From a virus (lineage: Duplodnaviria > Heunggongvirae > Uroviricota > Caudoviricetes): a DNA stretch of 12,182 nt. Each line of letters opens with the position of its first letter. Position 1 is the stretch's first letter. Both the position numbers and the translations under genes were made by a program. Shown in pieces: positions 2,085 to 7,097 of this stretch. Under the pieces are notes generated by a model, which saw nothing but the letters and a program-made list of their open reading frames with translations, had not been told where the DNA came from and ran no database searches. The stretch spans positions 1 to 12,182 of IMG/VR virus record IMGVR_UViG_3300032070_000001; one strand, 5' to 3'.

Positions 2085-2816
2085 TTACTCGCGCATACCT
2101 GCGAGATGCCTGATGCCCAGTCGGACTAACCGCACGACCGCCAGGGCATCGGCAATGGCAGTGTGGGCGACTTTCGTATTGATTCCAGCCCGTTCGTAAC
2201 AGGTCTTGCTATCCGGTAGCCGCTCGTCTTCAGGTTTCCAGAACAAGATGGCTGGGTCAAGGATGCGGTGACGGAAACCAAGGTGCCGGCCGAAGCCTGG
2301 CAAGCGCTTCAGGAATTGTAGGTCGAAACTGGCGAAATTCTTGCCGGCAGCCTGAATATGCAGCGGATCGAATCCGTTGGCCTGAAGCCACCGGGCAAAC
2401 TGCTCGCAGAACTCTTCTGGCTTGCAAAATTCGCAACGGGAGGTGACGGGTGGAGTGGGCGGATTAGCAATCTGCTTGAGCAGATTGGCATTCAAGGCCA
2501 TTGCAAAGGGACTGCCGGTGACCGTCTCGTAAACCAGGATGCGACGGAACCGCGGCAATTGGTCAATAAGCGTCTTCCAGTCGTCGATCACGGCTCCCAC
2601 TTCGAGCGTCTGGCAGGTCTCGGGGTCCAACCCGGTAGTCTCGATGTCGATGGAGACGTAAGGCATCTTGGGCGCAACCGGCGGCAACTTGGGATCATGG
2701 AGTCCGTGCATGATGCTTCCGCTCCATCCACAGCTAGAACAGTAGGACAGGGCGGGATTGGAAATACCGCCAGATACTTGTAACACCGCTTCACACTTCG
2801 GACAGAGTTTCTTCAT
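2085..2816 (-). CDS. DEDDh (DnaQ-superfamily) 3'-5' exonuclease with an N-terminal Zn-ribbon, 243 aa
   Basis: ExoI SIDIETTGLDP, ExoII AGKNFASFD, ExoIII HTAIAD. N-terminal CPKC...CSSC. Starts 3 nt after the Ro60 stop. Confidence 0.9.
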   Translation of the reverse strand: MKKLCPKCEAVLQVSGGISNPALSYCSSCGWSGSIMHGLHDPKLPPVAPKMPYVSIDIETTGLDPETCQTLEVGAVIDDWKTLIDQLPRFRRILVYETVTGSPFAMALNANLLKQIANPPTPPVTSRCEFCKPEEFCEQFARWLQANGFDPLHIQAAGKNFASFDLQFLKRLPGFGRHLGFRHRILDPAILFWKPEDERLPDSKTCYERAGINTKVAHTAIADALAVVRLVRLGIRHLAGMRE

Positions 2817-2819
2817 GGA

Positions 2820-4415
2820 TCAGTTTCGCGCGAAGTCAGCCATCACGGCGGGACATGAGGCGTCGAAGCCCACCACGTCCAACATCCCAGGGTCACTGGA
2901 GTCGGCGATGGTGAACTCGGTGGCCGTCATGCCGACGACGATCAGCTTGGCGTTGATCCCGGTCGTCTTGCGGTACTGGACGAGGGCCTGGGAGGGGTGA
3001 ATCTGACCGGCCCAAGTCTCGTTGTCCGTATAAACGACGAACGCATCCACCTCCAGTTGGTTTTGGAGGGCGTAGATCATGGGCTGAGCGCAATCCGTGC
3101 GGCCGTAGTCGATGCAGTCGATCTTCTCGATCACGCTGTCAAGCCGGCTGCAACGGGAGATGTTGATGGGCACCAGCACGTGCGAAAAGCCAATCAAGTG
3201 GGTCTGGGGCTCGCTCTTGAGAGTCACCATTGCCATGCAGGCTGACGCCTTGCGGGCGTCCAGACCCGTGTTGGCGAGATACTGGCACGTCATAGACCCG
3301 GACACGTCCAGGGCCAGCAGGTGCCGCTTGCCGCTGGGCTCCACGGCGTCGAAAGCCAGGTAGAAGGCGTCTTCCAGGGCGTCTCGGATTTGGGCCACCG
3401 GGTCCCAGGTCAGGCTTCCCTTGAGGCCGTGGCCTCTGCCGTAGGTGTCCAGGGCCAGCAGGACGGAGAGCGGATGGACTCGGGCGGCCTTGAGCCGGGC
3501 CAGGTCCCGCAGGGTCTCGCAGGCGGCTTGGGTTCCCCGAGAGAGGGGCTTGAGCAGCCCGATGCTGGTCATCTTTCCTAGGTTGCGGATCAAGGCCGTG
3601 GGCGGCAGGTTCGGCAGCAGGGCCTCCCAGACCGCCGGACTACCCAGGTGCGTGTTGGGGACGTGCTCCAGGGTCAAACCGTAGGTGCCGATCAAGCCGA
3701 TCAGTTCCTTCTCGGTCACGTTTGGCTGATTGGCGGCCTCAAAACCGATGATGATGTCAGGCACGCCACCAATGATCGTGTCGAAGGTTGCGCCTTTGAC
3801 GATGTAGCGATAGAGGGCGTTGTGATCGGCATCGGCTGCCGTGGGGTGGCTTAGCCGCAGAGCATCCCGATGGGTGTAGCCCACGCGGTTGCGGTACTTG
3901 GTCACCTGGTAGGCCAGCTTCTCCACCGATTTGTCGTTGTACCAGGCGGCCACGGCCTCGCGGAGTCCACGACCCCAGCCGCGCAGTTCCTTGCAGTTGG
4001 CGAGGAACTGAAACAGATGGGTGCCGATGCGGCAAACGCGGGGCAAAGCAACCAGGGCCAGATTTCGGGCGGCGTTATTCCCTCGGCTGGCCACGAGTGC
4101 CAAGGCAAAAATCGCCGGGTCGTTTTTGGGAGCGCGGCCTGCCTCGCTCACCTGGCAGATCGTCTCCACGGTGCGAGCGGGGTCTTCCTCGGCACAAGCC
4201 GTGATGCAAGTGGCGTTCTCTTGAGTCAGCTTCCGCTCGCCGACGTAGTAGGTGCCGCCTTCGGAACCGAGGATCAAGAAGCGCTGCAACCGGCCCCAGT
4301 CGTCGAGAACGTAGCTGTAACCCCCGGCATGGTTTTCTTGCTGACTGGTGCCGGGGATCGGCTCACTCTGCGGGGTCTGACATCGGGAGACGTGACGGGC
4401 GTAAGTGCGACTCAT
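2820..4415 (-). CDS. rsr: Ro60/Rsr-family TROVE-domain RNA-binding protein with a C-terminal vWA domain, 531 aa
   Basis: NHAGGYSY...RLQRFLILGSEGGTYY, PKNDPAIFALA, THLFQF, KYRNRVGYTHRDALRLSHP and LIRNLGKMT match Ro60 motifs. The vWA MIDAS motif is ALDVSGSM, followed by AFVVYTDNETW and MLDVVGFD. GGAG SD. Confidence 0.95.
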   Translation of the reverse strand: MSRTYARHVSRCQTPQSEPIPGTSQQENHAGGYSYVLDDWGRLQRFLILGSEGGTYYVGERKLTQENATCITACAEEDPARTVETICQVSEAGRAPKNDPAIFALALVASRGNNAARNLALVALPRVCRIGTHLFQFLANCKELRGWGRGLREAVAAWYNDKSVEKLAYQVTKYRNRVGYTHRDALRLSHPTAADADHNALYRYIVKGATFDTIIGGVPDIIIGFEAANQPNVTEKELIGLIGTYGLTLEHVPNTHLGSPAVWEALLPNLPPTALIRNLGKMTSIGLLKPLSRGTQAACETLRDLARLKAARVHPLSVLLALDTYGRGHGLKGSLTWDPVAQIRDALEDAFYLAFDAVEPSGKRHLLALDVSGSMTCQYLANTGLDARKASACMAMVTLKSEPQTHLIGFSHVLVPINISRCSRLDSVIEKIDCIDYGRTDCAQPMIYALQNQLEVDAFVVYTDNETWAGQIHPSQALVQYRKTTGINAKLIVVGMTATEFTIADSSDPGMLDVVGFDASCPAVMADFARN

Positions 4416-4432
4416 GGTGCAAACTCCAAAAG

Positions 4433-4492
4433 TTAGGCAAGGTGTTGTGACTGGGCGAATCGTAGAAGGATAACCCAGTCACTTCGGCCCAA
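4433..4492 (-). ncRNA. Y RNA-like small RNA, copy A
   Basis: TTGGGC-C-GAAG TGACTGGGTTATCC...GCCCAGTCAC AACAC CTTGCCTAA. It has a lower stem with a bulged C, a perfect 9-bp upper stem GTGACTGGG/CCCAGTCAC and a following TTTT, and ends 17 nt before the Ro60 ATG. Confidence 0.75.
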
Positions 4493-4511
4493 ACGTGAAA
4501 CGCTTCAAAAT

Positions 4512-4569
4512 CGGGCAAGGTGTGCCGATGGGTGAAATCTTAACAGGATAACCCAAGGGCTTCGGCCCG
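4512..4569 (-). ncRNA. Y RNA-like small RNA, copy B
   Basis: CGGGC-C-GAAG CCCTTGGGTTATCC...ACCCATCGGC ACAC CTTGCCCG then ATTTT. Same fold as copy A with a different upper-stem sequence. Confidence 0.72.
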
Positions 4570-4572
4570 GAG

Positions 4573-4660
4573 GCACGTCGATAGGACTCGAACCTACGAC
4601 TTCAGGTTTCCTTGATAACGCTGGTTTACCTGCGCTCTAGCCAACTGAGCTACGACGTGC
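4573..4660 (-). ncRNA. tRNA-like RNA with a 20-nt anticodon loop
   Basis: GCACGTCG TA GCTC AGTTGGCTA GAGC G CAGGT [AAACCAGCGTTATCAAGGAA] ACCTG AAGTC GTAGG TTCGAGT CCTAT CGACGTGC. The D and T arms are canonical, the acceptor stem is 8 bp, there is no 7-nt anticodon loop and no CCA. Confidence 0.8.
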
Positions 4661-4673
4661 ATTTGGTTGTTAA

Positions 4674-4895
4674 TCAGGCAGTGTACCGCGTGATGCCGTC
4701 CCGCACTGCCTTGCCGCGAAGTGTCTTGATCTTCATGCCTTTCGCGCGAAGATGACTGAGTTGGACAGTCAAATTGGCGCGCTTGACCTTGCGACGAGTC
4801 TTCTTGCCGACTTATTCGACAAGTTGAGTCATTGTGTACCGCCGGCCGCTGCGAAGAACGGCCTTCAATGCTTCTTGCTGATTCGGTCGCGTCAT
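4674..4895 (-). pseudogene. Small basic, winged-HTH-like protein interrupted by an in-frame TAA at codon 28
   Basis: AGGA SD and ATG at 4895: MTRPNQQEALKAVLRSGRRYTMTQLVE*VGKKTRRKVKRANLTVQLSHLRAKGMKIKTLRGKAVRDGITRYTA*. TAA at 4814-4812; the frame stays protein-like on both sides. The fold call is by eye. Confidence 0.55.
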
Positions 4896-4942
4896 GGGTT
4901 CTTCCTAAATGGTTGAGTGGAAACAAACGGACAAGTTTTCAG

Positions 4943-5019
4943 TGGACCCTGCCGGGACTCGAACCCGGATCAGTCGTCGGCAAAGCCAAAGCTGTGCTGC
5001 CATTACACCACAGAGTCCA
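4943..5019 (-). ncRNA. tRNA-like RNA (D arm resembles tRNA-Gln) with a malformed anticodon arm
   Basis: TGGACTCTG TG GTGT AATGGCA GCAC AGCTTTGGCTTTGCCGACGACTGAT CCGGG TTCGAGT CCCGG CAGGGTCCA. The T arm is perfect, but no 5-bp stem with a 7-nt loop can be drawn in the anticodon region (best is TTGGC-TTT-GCCGA). Confidence 0.72.
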
Positions 5020-5024
5020 TAAAG

Positions 5025-5086
5025 CGCGGGCAAGGGTATGCCAGTGGGTAAACTGATGATAGGTAACCCATCGACTTTGGCCCGCG
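5025..5086 (-). ncRNA. Y RNA-like small RNA, copy C
   Basis: CGCGGGC-C-AAAG TCGATGGGTTACC...ACCCACTGGC ATACC CTTGCCCGCG then CTTT. It has a 7-bp terminal stem, a bulged C, and a G-to-A change that keeps pairing with U. Confidence 0.7.
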
Positions 5087-5101
5087 TGTTTCACGGTCTT
5101 G

Positions 5102-5464
5102 TTAAACTCCTAGTTCTTGGAGGATTCGGATTTCGACTTTCGTGAGTTTCTTGAGTGCTTGGCGTCGGTAAGCAGTGAGTCGGTCGTACTCGCGGCACGC
5201 TTGCCGGTGCGCTTCGAGGATTTTCTGGTACGCTTGGCGGCAGGCCGCTTTCGTCCCTTGCCCCGTGCCGTGGCAAGTGGCGCAACGGATGGGTCGGTCG
5301 AGTCGGTAGTTGTCTTCCGGGAAGACGCTTTCGATGCAGACTTCAATCGTTTGTGTCCCTTTTCCTCGGCAGACGAGGCAAGGGTAGGGGCGGATGGCAT
5401 CACTTCCGTGGGCGAAGCAGAAGAGTCCGAAGTTCTTATAAGGTCGTCGGGGGCGGCTTCGCAT
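5102..5464 (-). CDS. Hypothetical protein with two DnaJ-type CxxCxGxG zinc-binding motifs, 120 aa
   Basis: CLVCRGKG and CATCHGTG; GAGGA SD upstream of ATG 5464. Confidence 0.75.
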   Translation of the reverse strand: MRSRPRRPYKNFGLFCFAHGSDAIRPYPCLVCRGKGTQTIEVCIESVFPEDNYRLDRPIRCATCHGTGQGTKAACRQAYQKILEAHRQACREYDRLTAYRRQALKKLTKVEIRILQELGV

Positions 5465-5895
5465 TCCTCTTCCTCATAGTCTGCACGTTGTCGCACTGGG
5501 CGACTATCACTAAGAATGTCGTAAATCCGTCGATTCAGTTTTGTCTCGACCCATGCCGGGAAACCGATTGGAATGTGTCCGCCGAACAGTTCCTTCAAGG
5601 CCCGGATGCCGGTCACCTCGGTGGCCTTGGTCCAGAGCCGGTAATGCTGTTCACACTCTTCCTGAGCCGCTTTCAAGGTTTTAATGAGCCGCCGTTCGCG
5701 GTTCACGAAGTCCCATCCTGGTCGCAGTTCTCCGTCACTGTAAGGAATCAAGGTACGGACGCACGCTTGATACCTAGCGGGTATTTGAACGCCTCGGTAT
5801 TCACATCTCCAGATGATCCGGTAGCCTTCCTCCGTGAACCAACTGCGGCGGACCTTCTGGTCTTGGCCTTTTTTCTTTTTGCGGATGAATTCCAT
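5110..5895 (-). CDS. Hypothetical protein, 261 aa, with a globular-looking N-half and a Ser/Lys/Arg-rich tail overlapping the Zn-finger gene
   Basis: Long ORF whose ATG lies immediately after the last CRISPR-like repeat. The true 3' extent is uncertain. Confidence 0.65.
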   Translation of the reverse strand: MEFIRKKKKGQDQKVRRSWFTEEGYRIIWRCEYRGVQIPARYQACVRTLIPYSDGELRPGWDFVNRERRLIKTLKAAQEECEQHYRLWTKATEVTGIRALKELFGGHIPIGFPAWVETKLNRRIYDILSDSRPVRQRADYEEEECEAAPDDLIRTSDSSASPTEVMPSAPTLASSAEEKGHKRLKSASKASSRKTTTDSTDPSVAPLATARGKGRKRPAAKRTRKSSKRTGKRAASTTDSLLTDAKHSRNSRKSKSESSKN

Positions 5896-5896
5896 T

Positions 5897-5998
5897 GGTA
5901 GTCTTACTAGGGAATCTCAGGTGGTCTGCAACCTCTGCTGTCAAGGGCAATTGCGGGTTTGTGGTGGTCTTACTAGGGAATCTCAGGTGGTCTGCAAC
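5897..5998 (-). CRISPR. CRISPR-like mini-array: two 36-nt repeats and one 30-nt spacer
   Basis: Minus-strand repeats GTTGCAGACCACCTGAGATTCCCTAGTAAGAC(C/T)ACC at 5998-5963 and 5932-5897 (35/36 identical; 37 nt if the shared flanking A is included). Spacer ACAAACCCGCAATTGCCCTTGACAGCAGAG at 5962-5933. With only two repeats, this is below the usual array threshold. Confidence 0.72.
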
Positions 5999-7097
5999 AG
6001 GTTGGTTGTAACTTGTCGCTGGCCTTCATGTTCCAGTGTTTTGCTGGCATTAAAATCGCGGTCGTGGACCGTTCCGCAACCTGGGCACGTCCATTTTCCT
6101 CAAAACCCAAGGTTGTGTTCTTGAATCCACAGAGATGACACGTCTTGCTTGAAGGAAAGTAGGGGTCGGCCTTGAGAAGTTGTTTCCCACGGTCGTGCAA
6201 CTTGTACTCAAGGCACTGACGAAAATGGCCATGTCCAACATCCGTGAGCGACTTGGCAAACCGGCCCTGTTGTTGGGCTTTCAGGGAGTGGGACTCGATG
6301 CACACTGCGTCGTACTTCTCGGCCACTTGCTTCGAGATGAAGTGCGAAAAGTGCTTGCGCCGGTTGGCGATACCGGCATGAATCTTAGCGATGCGAGCCA
6401 CTGTCTGTTTGCGGCGATTGCTTCCTTTCTTTTGGCGGGCCAACTTGCGCTGCCAATGGGCTAGTTTGCGGGCGTATTGACATGTCCACCGGGGGTTAGC
6501 AATCACCCTTTCATCGCTGATGACTGCATACTTGCGGAAACCTGTGTCGAGGCCAACGAGGTTGATTGGTGCAACAGGTGGCGGTGTCGGTAAATCCTTC
6601 TTAACAGTGAAACTCGCATACCAACGGTTTGCGACTCGTTTGATTCGGACAGCGGCACCGATCTTACCAGTTGCCGGTAAGTCGCGGGCGAGTTTCAGCC
6701 GCATCTTAGCAGCAATCAATCGTCGGCCTTTTAGTCGGCAGTGTTCTGGAATCAAGAAGCCTTGGTTGCTATCCTCGGGTCGCTTGCGCCGAGGGAAACC
6801 GGCTTTAACTTTACCTTGTTTCACTCGCTTGAAGAATGCGTTCATAGCGGTCCTCAAGTCACGAAGGGCGGCACGAACGGTATGGCTGTTTAGAGTCTGC
6901 ATCCCTTCCGTCTTGTGCAGTGAGACCGATTCTCGGCTAAGTCGATTCCAATCCAATTTCTCCTTGGCTTTGTGCCATTGCTGGATGGTTGCTAATCCCC
7001 AATTCCATACGCGGCGACGTGCGAATAGATACTGGCGCAACAAGGCCGTTTGTATTGGCGTCGGAAACAACCGGATTGTGTATTTGCGAGTGCTCAT
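5983..7097 (-). CDS. tnpB: TnpB-family / compact type V-like RNA-guided RuvC nuclease, ~371 aa once a 1-nt frameshift at 6094-6097 is repaired
   Basis: N-terminal YTIRLFPT, GFPRRK, RWYASFTV, RuvC-I VGLDTG, RuvC-II VCIES and SSKTCHLCG. The canonical end KWTCPGCGTVHDRDFNASKTL lies in the -1 frame and stops at TGA 5985-5983 inside the first repeat. The likely start is ATG 7097; the track starts at TTG 7106. Confidence 0.9.

What the first reader, a model, noticed from the sequence alone, without database searches (positions are those of the whole stretch)
4433..5086. Three minimal ~60-nt Y RNAs that resemble the metazoan type more than tRNA-mimic YrlA
Seen: three copies share GGC-C-(G/A)AAG...UGGGUUA(U/C)C...CCCA...AC(A/C)CUUGCC, each followed by a U3-4 run. 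Stems covary: upper stems GUGACUGGG/CCCAGUCAC, GCCCUUGGGU/ACCCAUCGGC and GUCGAUGGGU/ACCCACUGGC; terminal stems also differ but still pair. Established (recalled): the Ro-binding helix of vertebrate Y RNAs is GUC-C-GA/UUGAC with a bulged C, human Y4 and Y5 carry GUGGGUUAU in the upper stem, and bacterial Y RNAs share a GNCGAAN(0-1)G motif. Copies A and B match the bacterial motif exactly; C has a pairing-neutral G-to-A change. Inference: a compact Y RNA family lacking the tRNA-like module, whose different apical loops could recruit different partners or act as decoys for host Ro60.
Basis: partly seen in the sequence, partly recalled or inferred. Interest (0 to 1): 0.85.

Follow-up and report, generated by a model that had tools for sequence, protein, structure and literature searches.

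The report
Three minimal phage Y RNAs beside Ro60
Just upstream of this phage's Ro60 gene lie three real ~60-base hairpin RNAs of the Y RNA type, members of a large, uncatalogued bacterial and phage family whose whole stem looks surprisingly like that of animal Y RNAs.

Summary
Observation confirmed. Three 60-nt hairpins lie on the minus strand (A 4433-4492, B 4511-4570, C 5026-5085), directly upstream of a canonical Ro60 gene (TROVE+vWA, 2820-4415). All share a terminal stem, a bulged C, G.U/A-U pairs, a 9-10 bp upper stem and a loop starting UUAYC.

A covariance model built from seven such hairpins found 130 matches in 81 phage Ro60 loci chosen by protein alone. All 130 are on the Ro60 strand, and 59 of 81 loci have at least one. 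In 80 bacterial Ro60 loci it found 118 matches in 66 loci. About 95% of cells pair, against 37-52% in slid controls, with heavy compensatory change.

The copies do not match Rfam YrlA. They give significant sub-threshold matches to the nematode stem-bulge RNA model, and two relatives pass its threshold.

The best reading is minimal, YrlB-like Y RNAs that bind the phage Ro60 and are probably cut from one precursor at the two interleaved tRNA-like genes. Those tRNA-like genes are deletion remnants of tRNA-shaped scaffolds that, in relatives, carry a permuted Ro-binding module.

Binding and expression are untested. This scan has noted Ro60-linked small-RNA arrays, including un-permuted YrlA forms, on other phage DNA.

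The parts
4433..4492 (-). Y RNA hairpin A: terminal stem, bulged C, G.U/A-U pairs, perfect 9-10 bp upper stem and an 18-nt loop starting UUAUC. It ends 17 nt before the Ro60 start codon.
   Evidence: R1 70.5 bits; fold z -4.4; RF01656 32.8 bits, E 1e-4, and RF00019 20.9 bits
4511..4570 (-). Y RNA hairpin B. It starts 1 nt after the 3' end of tRNA-like gene 2.
   Evidence: R1 50.5 bits; B was not a seed of the model. RF01656 28.6 bits. The junction GUGCCUCCGGGCCGAAGC is conserved in L026 and L052.
5026..5085 (-). Y RNA hairpin C, with A in place of the 99%-conserved G after the bulged C. It ends 7 nt before tRNA-like gene 1.
   Evidence: R1 67 bits; RF01656 27.3 bits; column frequencies; orthologues in L039 and L052
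4572..4659 (-). tRNA-like gene 2: normal acceptor, D and T arms but a 20-nt anticodon loop. It is a 46-nt deletion derivative of a ~130-nt tRNA-shaped scaffold that carries a permuted Ro-binding module in relatives. Likely RNase P/Z processing signal.
   Evidence: Rfam tRNA 50.2 bits with a 20-nt insert; ARAGORN; alignment with L026, L052 and L039
4942..5018 (-). tRNA-like gene 1: acceptor, D and T arms intact, anticodon arm reduced to a 5-bp stem with a UUU triloop. It lacks ~48 nt relative to its orthologues.
   Evidence: Rfam tRNA 39.2 bits; ARAGORN; fold; alignment
2820..4415 (-). Ro60 gene (531 aa, TROVE + Ro60 vWA), the presumed protein partner
   Evidence: Pfam PF25045 9e-66 and PF05731 2e-40; PDB 2nvo 4e-126, 1yvp 1e-121, 9nen 2e-118
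2085..2816 (-). DEDD/RNase T-like exonuclease with an N-terminal Cys-rich segment, 3 nt downstream of Ro60. Possible effector nuclease, but not a conserved partner.
   Evidence: Pfam RNase_T, weak, E 6e-5; found beside Ro60 in only 1 of 81 phage loci, L082

Best explanation
The three hairpins are phage-encoded minimal Y RNAs. They are hairpin-type, YrlB/Yrn2/Yrl2-like relatives of YrlA without an internal tRNA-like domain, and they partner the phage's own canonical Ro60.

Proposed mechanism, with the basis of each step:
1. Inferred: the array C, tRNA-like 1, small ORF, tRNA-like 2, B, A, Ro60 is transcribed as one precursor together with the flanking genes.
2. Inferred from the geometry: the tRNA-like genes act as RNase P and RNase Z cleavage signals. 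These cuts set the 3' end of C and the 5' end of B, and other nucleases trim the rest.
3. Inferred from motif conservation and from published Ro60-Y RNA work: the conserved lower helix (GGGC, bulged C, GA paired with UU, GCCC) docks on the outer face of the Ro60 ring.
4. Speculative: the invariant UUAYC and the U/A-rich single-stranded loop either gate the Ro60 cavity or offer a platform for a 3'-5' exoribonuclease. That nuclease could be host PNPase, as in RYPER and phiLo, or the DEDD nuclease encoded just after Ro60. The complex would reshape RNA surveillance or decay during infection.
For: Ro60 identity.

Hairpin reality:
- Pattern: 3 matches against 0 expected.
- Folds.
- Own genome: only these three R1 matches in 90.7 kb.

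Family association:
- In 81 IMG/VR Ro60 loci chosen by protein alone, R1 found 130 matches, all on the Ro60 strand.
- 59 of 81 loci have at least one match. 110 matches are upstream at a median of 204 nt, and 20 lie just downstream.
- In 80 bacterial Ro60 loci there are 118 matches, 115 of them on the Ro60 strand, in 66 loci.

Structure:
- 95.0% and 95.7% of cells pair, against 37-52% in slid controls.
- 15 of 17 pairs show double-sided changes. No shuffle out of 500 reached the observed covariation score.
- The bulged C is invariant. The G.U pair is kept as G.U in 99 of 118 and 106 of 118 sequences. UUAYC is 96-100% conserved.

Processing model:
- 22 of 118 hairpins lie within 12 nt of a tRNA-like gene on the same strand.
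- No sigma-70-like promoter and no minus-strand terminator-like site was found in 4300-6000.
- In M. smegmatis, YrlA and YrlB upstream of rsr are cut from one precursor, and RNase P cleaves YrlA (PMC4201824).

Precedent:
- Hairpin Y RNAs with small pyrimidine-rich loops are known in three bacteria.
- Thermus phage phiLo Yrl1 and Yrl2 lie upstream of its Ro60, bind it and bind host PNPase (PMC12135203).
Against: - No expression, end-mapping or binding data exist for this phage or its relatives.
- The alignments used for pair counts were fitted to the model, which inflates pairing somewhat.
- The model was seeded with sequences chosen for the motif, so invariance of GGCCGAAG and UUAYC is partly built in.
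- Copy C carries A at a 99%-G position and may bind weakly.
- Loops beyond UUAYC are not conserved between orthologues, so no specific effector site can be named.
- The neighbouring exonuclease is conserved in only one related locus.
- 22 of 81 phage Ro60 loci had no match.
Confidence: 0.8

Rival explanations
1. The hairpins are cis-acting operator sites in the Ro60 mRNA leader, not free small RNAs. Ro60 would bind its own 5' UTR to control translation or stability.
For: Copy A ends 17 nt before the Ro60 start codon, and the Shine-Dalgarno GGAG follows it directly. No promoter-like site, and no terminator-like site on the coding (minus) strand, separates the array from Ro60. In many bacterial loci the best match lies about 60-125 nt upstream of the Ro60 match.
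Against: Twenty phage matches lie downstream of Ro60. Arrays hold up to 6 copies. Hairpins are bracketed by tRNA-like processing signals. In M. smegmatis, RNAs in the same position accumulate as stable Rsr-bound species. The two roles are not mutually exclusive.
Confidence: 0.1
2. The hairpins act mainly as decoys or sponges for a host Ro60, or for host Y RNA-binding factors, rather than as partners of the phage protein.
For: Ro60 genes occur in Planctomycetota assemblies. A Thermoguttaceae MAG has a 63% identical copy and another Planctomycetota MAG has a hit. Three copies could titrate a protein.
Against: The phage encodes its own canonical Ro60 immediately downstream. The same hairpins flank chromosomal rsr in 66 of 80 bacterial loci, where a decoy role makes no sense. 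The Thermoguttaceae copy may itself be a prophage.
Confidence: 0.07
3. They are DNA-level repeats, such as protein-binding or recombination sites, or chance palindromes with no RNA function.
For: They are imperfect direct repeats with internal dyad symmetry.
Against: Compensatory base changes preserve pairing with G.U pairs allowed. All 130 phage matches are on one strand. There are significant matches to curated RNA models.
Confidence: 0.02

Closest known systems
Hairpin-type bacterial and phage Y RNAs: S. Typhimurium and M. smegmatis YrlB, D. radiodurans Yrn2 (PMC4201824), and Thermus phage phiLo Yrl1/Yrl2 (PMC12135203)
   Same: Small RNAs encoded next to Ro60 on the same strand. They have a stem formed by the two ends, a CGAA-containing Ro-binding motif, no full tRNA-like domain and a small pyrimidine-rich loop. 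In phiLo they lie upstream of a phage Ro60 and bind it.
   Different: Those RNAs were found one species at a time, and BLAST with YrlB found only Salmonella orthologues. Here the hairpins belong to a sequence-conserved family found in 59 of 81 phage and 66 of 80 bacterial Ro60 loci. No direct sequence comparison with YrlB, Yrn2 or Yrl2 was possible. The phiLo Ro60 is only distantly related to this one (E 8e-12).
YrlA (Rfam RF02553), the tRNA-mimic Y RNA
   Same: GNCGAAN0-1G near the 5' end. A conserved YUAY (here UUAUC or UUACC) directly after the Ro-binding stem. Position beside Ro60. Relatives with the same stem and an internal T/D-arm module exist (L015, L037, L073).
   Different: There is no T arm, D arm or acceptor-like stem inside the hairpins. 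RF02553 gives only 9-11-bit fragments, two on the window's separate tRNA-like genes and two on other tRNA-type sequence, against a gathering score of 69.
Nematode stem-bulge RNAs (Rfam RF01656) and vertebrate Y RNAs (RF00019)
   Same: Lower stem with bulged C and G.U/A-U pairs. The same 4-nt spacing to UGGGUUAUC. CCCA and an ACAC-type 3' internal loop before CUUG. Significant Rfam matches (E 1e-4 to 3e-3 after correction for all families). Two relatives exceed the curated threshold.
   Different: The apical region is far shorter than the model consensus. The genes are bacterial-phage genes with no Pol III unit. The window copies stay below the gathering score. The published role of the upper stem and UUAUC motif in chromosomal DNA replication (PMC4726728) has no obvious counterpart here.

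Membership tests
Bacterial/phage Y RNA (Ro60-associated Yrl RNAs) | Encoded within a few kb of Ro60 on the same strand | tested here: met
   17 to 670 nt upstream of Ro60, same strand. The family shows the same rule: all 130 phage matches and 115 of 118 bacterial matches are on the Ro60 strand.
Bacterial/phage Y RNA (Ro60-associated Yrl RNAs) | GNCGAAN0-1G motif near the 5' end | tested here: met
   A and B have GCCGAAG. C has GCCAAAG, one change at a 99%-G position.
Bacterial/phage Y RNA (Ro60-associated Yrl RNAs) | The two ends pair into a helix with a bulged C, supported by covariation | tested here: met
   Folds. About 95% paired against 37-52% when slid, and 15 of 17 pairs show compensatory changes, in two independent locus sets.
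Bacterial/phage Y RNA (Ro60-associated Yrl RNAs) | Physically bound to Ro60 and dependent on it for stability; a discrete small transcript | not testable with these tools
   Needs EMSA or co-immunoprecipitation and Northern blot or small-RNA sequencing.
YrlA (RF02553) | Internal tRNA-like domain (T arm, D arm, acceptor-like stem); score at or above the 69-bit gathering threshold | tested here: not met
   The loops are only 18-19 nt with no T or D arm. The best RF02553 match in the genome is 10.8 bits, on a tRNA-like gene.
YrlA (RF02553) | Conserved YUAY following the Ro-binding stem | tested here: met
   UUAUC in A and B, UUACC in C. U100, U100, A96, Y97 and C97% across 118 members. The feature is described in PMC4201824.
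Nematode sbRNA (RF01656) / vertebrate Y RNA (RF00019) | Score at or above the Rfam gathering threshold (38 bits for each) | tested here: not met
   RF01656: 32.8, 28.6 and 27.3 bits. RF00019: 20.9 bits, for A only. Relatives L053/L132 (40.2 bits) and L108 (38.1 bits) do pass RF01656.
Nematode sbRNA (RF01656) / vertebrate Y RNA (RF00019) | Upper stem with (G/A)UG...CAC-type core followed by UUAUC | tested here: met
   UGGGUUAUC and CCCA align with both Rfam consensus sequences. This is a sequence-level match only.
Nematode sbRNA (RF01656) / vertebrate Y RNA (RF00019) | Pol III gene with a 3' oligo-U tail bound by La; eukaryotic host | tested here: not met
   The source is a virus record whose Ro60 is closest to Planctomycetota and other bacterial MAGs. 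U3-4 runs are present but not universal in the family, at 41%.
Hairpin Y RNAs (YrlB, Yrn2, phiLo Yrl2) | [quoted passage not shown] | tested here: met
   The loops are 18, 19 and 18 nt with 72%, 63% and 67% pyrimidine, counted from the sequences. The description is in PMC4201824.
Hairpin Y RNAs (YrlB, Yrn2, phiLo Yrl2) | Sequence homology to the experimentally defined RNAs | not tested
   The sequences of YrlB, Yrn2 and Yrl2 were not available through the tools.

The most novel reading that the evidence does not exclude
The minimal hairpins are true homologues of animal Y RNAs and nematode stem-bulge RNAs along the whole stem: the lower Ro-binding helix, the 4-nt spacer, the UGGG/CCCA upper stem, the UUAUC loop start and the ACAC-type internal loop. 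If so, Ro60 and its Y RNA travelled together between bacteria or phages and animals. The upper-stem and UUAUC motif, credited in vertebrates and nematodes with DNA-replication activity, would then be an ancestral feature of the Ro60 ribonucleoprotein. This contradicts the published view that bacterial Y RNAs are not homologous to vertebrate Y RNAs.
Probability: 0.35. Interest if true: 0.8.

Novelty: new variant of a known kind. Interest (0 to 1): 0.62.

Why it matters
Y RNAs are known in only a handful of bacteria and one phage by experiment, and bioinformatically only as the tRNA-mimic YrlA. This window led to a compact, easily searchable hairpin family that accompanies most canonical Ro60 genes sampled in phages and bacteria. 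Rfam has no family for it.

Its stem is significantly similar to animal Y and stem-bulge RNA models. That makes two old questions testable: where Ro60/Y RNA particles came from, and what the conserved upper stem and UUAUC motif actually contact.

The locus also suggests a simple biogenesis scheme, in which tRNA-like genes act as processing punctuation for Y RNA arrays. With only three minimal Ro-binding RNAs, this phage would be a convenient minimal system for structural work.

Tried and rejected
- My first own-genome pattern used the wrong spacer (N5-9) and found nothing. The corrected N3-6 spacer worked.
- The motif scan of IMG/VR gave 74 loci. About 15 of them are one coding-sequence false positive, and many others are chance matches. 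Only 20 have Ro60 in the fetched stretch. I therefore did not use it as the association test and sampled Ro60 loci by protein instead.
- The search for related loci with the single protein found only 2 loci.
- MAFFT put the 3' halves out of register. RNAalifold on that alignment under-called the structure, so I seeded the model with 7 sequences of equal geometry and a hand-written structure.
- Megablast of the whole window against GenBank phages gave nothing useful.
- No sigma-70-like promoter and no terminator on the coding strand was found.
- The neighbouring exonuclease as a conserved Ro60 partner is rejected: it occurs in 1 of 81 loci.
- Stop-codon recoding as the explanation for the in-frame TAA in the small ORF is rejected: TGA, TAA and TAG all end the window's nine other long ORFs that I checked.
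- Three reviews (PMC10870794, PMC6047535, PMC6542706) are not held. A prior description of the minimal family or of the permuted tRNA-shaped form cannot be excluded.

Full report
**What is there.**
The window is the first 12.2 kb of a 90.7-kb IMG/VR virus record. Earlier notes of this scan assign the record to a Planctomycetes phage. The closest bacterial Ro60 is in a Thermoguttaceae MAG at 63% identity.

All genes in the region read on the minus strand. ORF 2820-4415 is a canonical Ro60. Pfam gives the Ro60 vWA domain at 9e-66 and TROVE at 2e-40. By sequence it is about as close to D. radiodurans Rsr (4e-126) as to Xenopus (1e-121) and human Ro60 (2e-118). It is far from the Thermus phage phiLo protein (8e-12).

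Upstream of Ro60, in 5'-to-3' order on the minus strand, lie:
- hairpin C (5085-5026)
- a tRNA-like gene (5018-4942)
- a short ORF
- a second tRNA-like gene (4659-4572)
- hairpin B (4570-4511)
- hairpin A (4492-4433)
- the Ro60 ribosome-binding site and start codon

**Checking the observation.**
The shared 5' motif occurs three times in the window against none in 200 shuffles. The repeat finder independently reports three 62-nt copies that are 61-71% alike.

Each copy folds as described:
- a 5-7 bp terminal stem
- an unpaired C
- G.U (A-U in copy C) and A-U pairs
- an asymmetric internal loop
- a 9-10 bp upper stem ending UGGG/CCCA
- an 18-19 nt pyrimidine-rich loop beginning UUAUC or UUACC

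The upper stems differ between copies yet still pair. The U3-4 runs are present.

**Is it a real RNA family tied to Ro60?**
I built a covariance model (R1) from seven hairpins of equal geometry with a hand-written structure. I then sampled Ro60 loci by protein alone. An alignment of 15 phage Ro60 proteins retrieved 385 IMG/VR stretches, of which 80 were kept.

In the 81 phage loci searched (these 80 plus L079), R1 gave the following:
- 130 matches at E <= 0.01, every one on the Ro60 strand
- 59 loci with at least one match
- 110 matches upstream, at a median of 204 nt from the gene, and 20 just downstream
- 103 matches of 50-69 nt

In the phage's own 90.7-kb record only the three window copies match.

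The same model run on 80 bacterial Ro60 loci found 118 matches. Of these, 115 are on the Ro60 strand, and 66 loci have at least one. The loci come from Verrucomicrobiota, Chloroflexota, Myxococcota, Armatimonadota, Planctomycetota and others.

Pair counts in the two sets are 95.0% and 95.7% paired, against 37-52% when partners are slid. There are 554 and 394 cells with double-sided changes, and 15 of 17 pairs covary. No shuffle out of 500 reached the observed covariation score.

These alignments were fitted to the model, and the seeds were chosen by motif, so the figures are somewhat flattering. The strand and position statistics do not depend on that.

The bulged C is invariant. The following G.U pair is kept as G.U rather than G-C. 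The loop starts U, U, A, Y, C in 96-100% of members.

**Relation to known families.**
Rfam's YrlA model (RF02553, gathering score 69 bits) gives only 9-11-bit fragments in this genome, two on the window's tRNA-like genes and two on other tRNA-type sequence.

All three hairpins match the nematode stem-bulge RNA model RF01656 at 32.8, 28.6 and 27.3 bits. The E-values are 1e-4 to 3e-3 after correction for all 4227 families. Copy A also matches vertebrate Y_RNA at 20.9 bits. All are below the 38-bit thresholds. Two relatives do pass the RF01656 threshold: L053/L132 at 40.2 bits and L108 at 38.1 bits.

The printed alignments show the likeness covers both strands of the whole stem. It includes the same 4-nt spacing between CCGAAG and UGGGUUAU, the CCCA, and the ACAC-type loop before CUUG.

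Published reviews state that bacterial Y RNAs are not homologous to the vertebrate clades. They also attribute the upper stem and UUAUC motif to DNA-replication activity (PMC4726728). The resemblance is therefore unexpected.

It is not uniquely metazoan, however. Chen et al. describe a conserved YUAY right after the Ro-binding stem of YrlA. Relatives with the same stem carry internal T and D arms (L015, L037, L073).

Hairpin Y RNAs without a tRNA-like domain are known experimentally: YrlB, Yrn2 and phiLo Yrl2. I therefore class the three copies as a new, compact, conserved variant of a known kind. I found no paper or Rfam family describing the family, but three reviews were not available.

**The tRNA-like genes and biogenesis.**
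Both tRNA-like genes keep good acceptor, D and T arms but cannot decode. One has a 20-nt anticodon loop. The other has a 5-bp stem with a triloop.

Alignment with the closest phages (Ro60 68-70% identical) shows they are orthologues of ~125-135-nt tRNA-shaped RNAs. In those RNAs the anticodon arm carries CUUGCC, a loop, GGGCCGAA, a 9-bp upper stem and UUAUC. That is the same Ro-binding module, circularly permuted and capped by a loop. The window copies have clean 46- and ~48-nt deletions of that module.

A regular-expression census found such tRNA-topology carriers in 17 of 81 phage and 28 of 80 bacterial Ro60 loci, with a few ARAGORN artefacts among them. An earlier report of this scan describes the same un-permuted YrlA wiring in another phage.

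Twenty-two of 118 hairpins lie within 12 nt of a tRNA-like gene on the same strand. In the window, C ends 7 nt before one such gene and B starts 1 nt after the other. The B junction sequence is conserved in relatives.

No promoter-like site, and no terminator-like site on the coding strand, was found in the array. In M. smegmatis, YrlA and YrlB are cut from one precursor and RNase P cleaves YrlA. Together these points suggest that one precursor is cut by RNase P and RNase Z at the tRNA-like punctuation. This is inference, not shown.

**Function.**
By analogy with RYPER and phiLo, the hairpins most likely dock on the phage Ro60 through the bulged helix. Their single-stranded loops could gate the ring or engage an exoribonuclease.

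The loops beyond UUAYC vary even between orthologous copies. This argues against sequence-specific partner recruitment. The DEDD-type exonuclease just downstream of Ro60 recurs in only one related locus, so it is an optional effector at best.

**Verdict.**
- Novelty: a new variant of a known kind.
- The main open points are expression, binding, and whether the likeness to animal Y RNAs reflects common descent or shared constraint from Ro60.

Noticed in passing
L026 12326-12455(-) and ~12480-12590(-); L039 8113-8240(+) and 8250-8379(+); L081 2372-2496 and 2504-2634; L113 2656-2781; window 4572-4659(-) and 4942-5018(-): Relatives carry ~125-135-nt tRNA-shaped RNAs with free acceptor ends and normal D and T arms. 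Their anticodon arm holds a circularly permuted Ro-binding module (3' strand, cap loop, GGGCCGAA, 9-bp stem, UUAUC), the reverse wiring of YrlA. The two window tRNA-like genes are 46- and ~48-nt deletion derivatives. A regex census found this wiring in 17 of 81 phage and 28 of 80 bacterial Ro60 loci. I found no description in the papers I could read; an earlier scan report saw it in another phage.
   Followed up: partly
window 4672-4895 (-): A small ORF between the two tRNA-like genes reads like a 74-aa basic helix-turn-helix-type protein but has an in-frame TAA at 4812-4814. TGA, TAA and TAG all end the window's other long ORFs that I checked, so it is probably a nonsense-mutated pseudogene or two tiny ORFs. 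The syntenic spacer in L082 encodes an unrelated ORF.
   Followed up: partly
L163 (Mycobacterium phage Alice, NC_028986) 2353-2418 and 2077-2145: The hairpin model matches (21.9 and 15.6 bits) fall inside the annotated hypothetical genes gp219 and gp218, just upstream of the Ro-like gene gp220. Those small ORFs may be miscalled Y RNA genes. None of the three GenBank phage records inspected annotates any ncRNA at the Ro60 locus.
   Followed up: no
window 2085-2816 (-): A 243-aa protein with an N-terminal CxxC...CxxC segment and a weak RNase T/DEDD exonuclease match starts 3 nt after Ro60. A homologue sits in the same place only in L082 (49% identity).
   Followed up: partly
window 5062-5082 (-), copy C: Copy C has A where 99% of 118 family members have the G that follows the bulged C. 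This turns the conserved G.U into A-U and may mark a weaker or specialised Ro60 ligand.
   Followed up: partly
L117 1298-1413 (+): A wcaG RNA (RF01761, 56.2 bits) lies about 1.6 kb upstream of Ro60 in one phage contig, next to a hairpin match.
   Followed up: no
L173 (MAG labelled Candidatus Bathyarchaeota) 927-1367: Four hairpin matches lie upstream of a Ro60 gene in a contig binned as archaeal. This is either a rare archaeal Ro60/Y RNA locus or a binning error.
   Followed up: no
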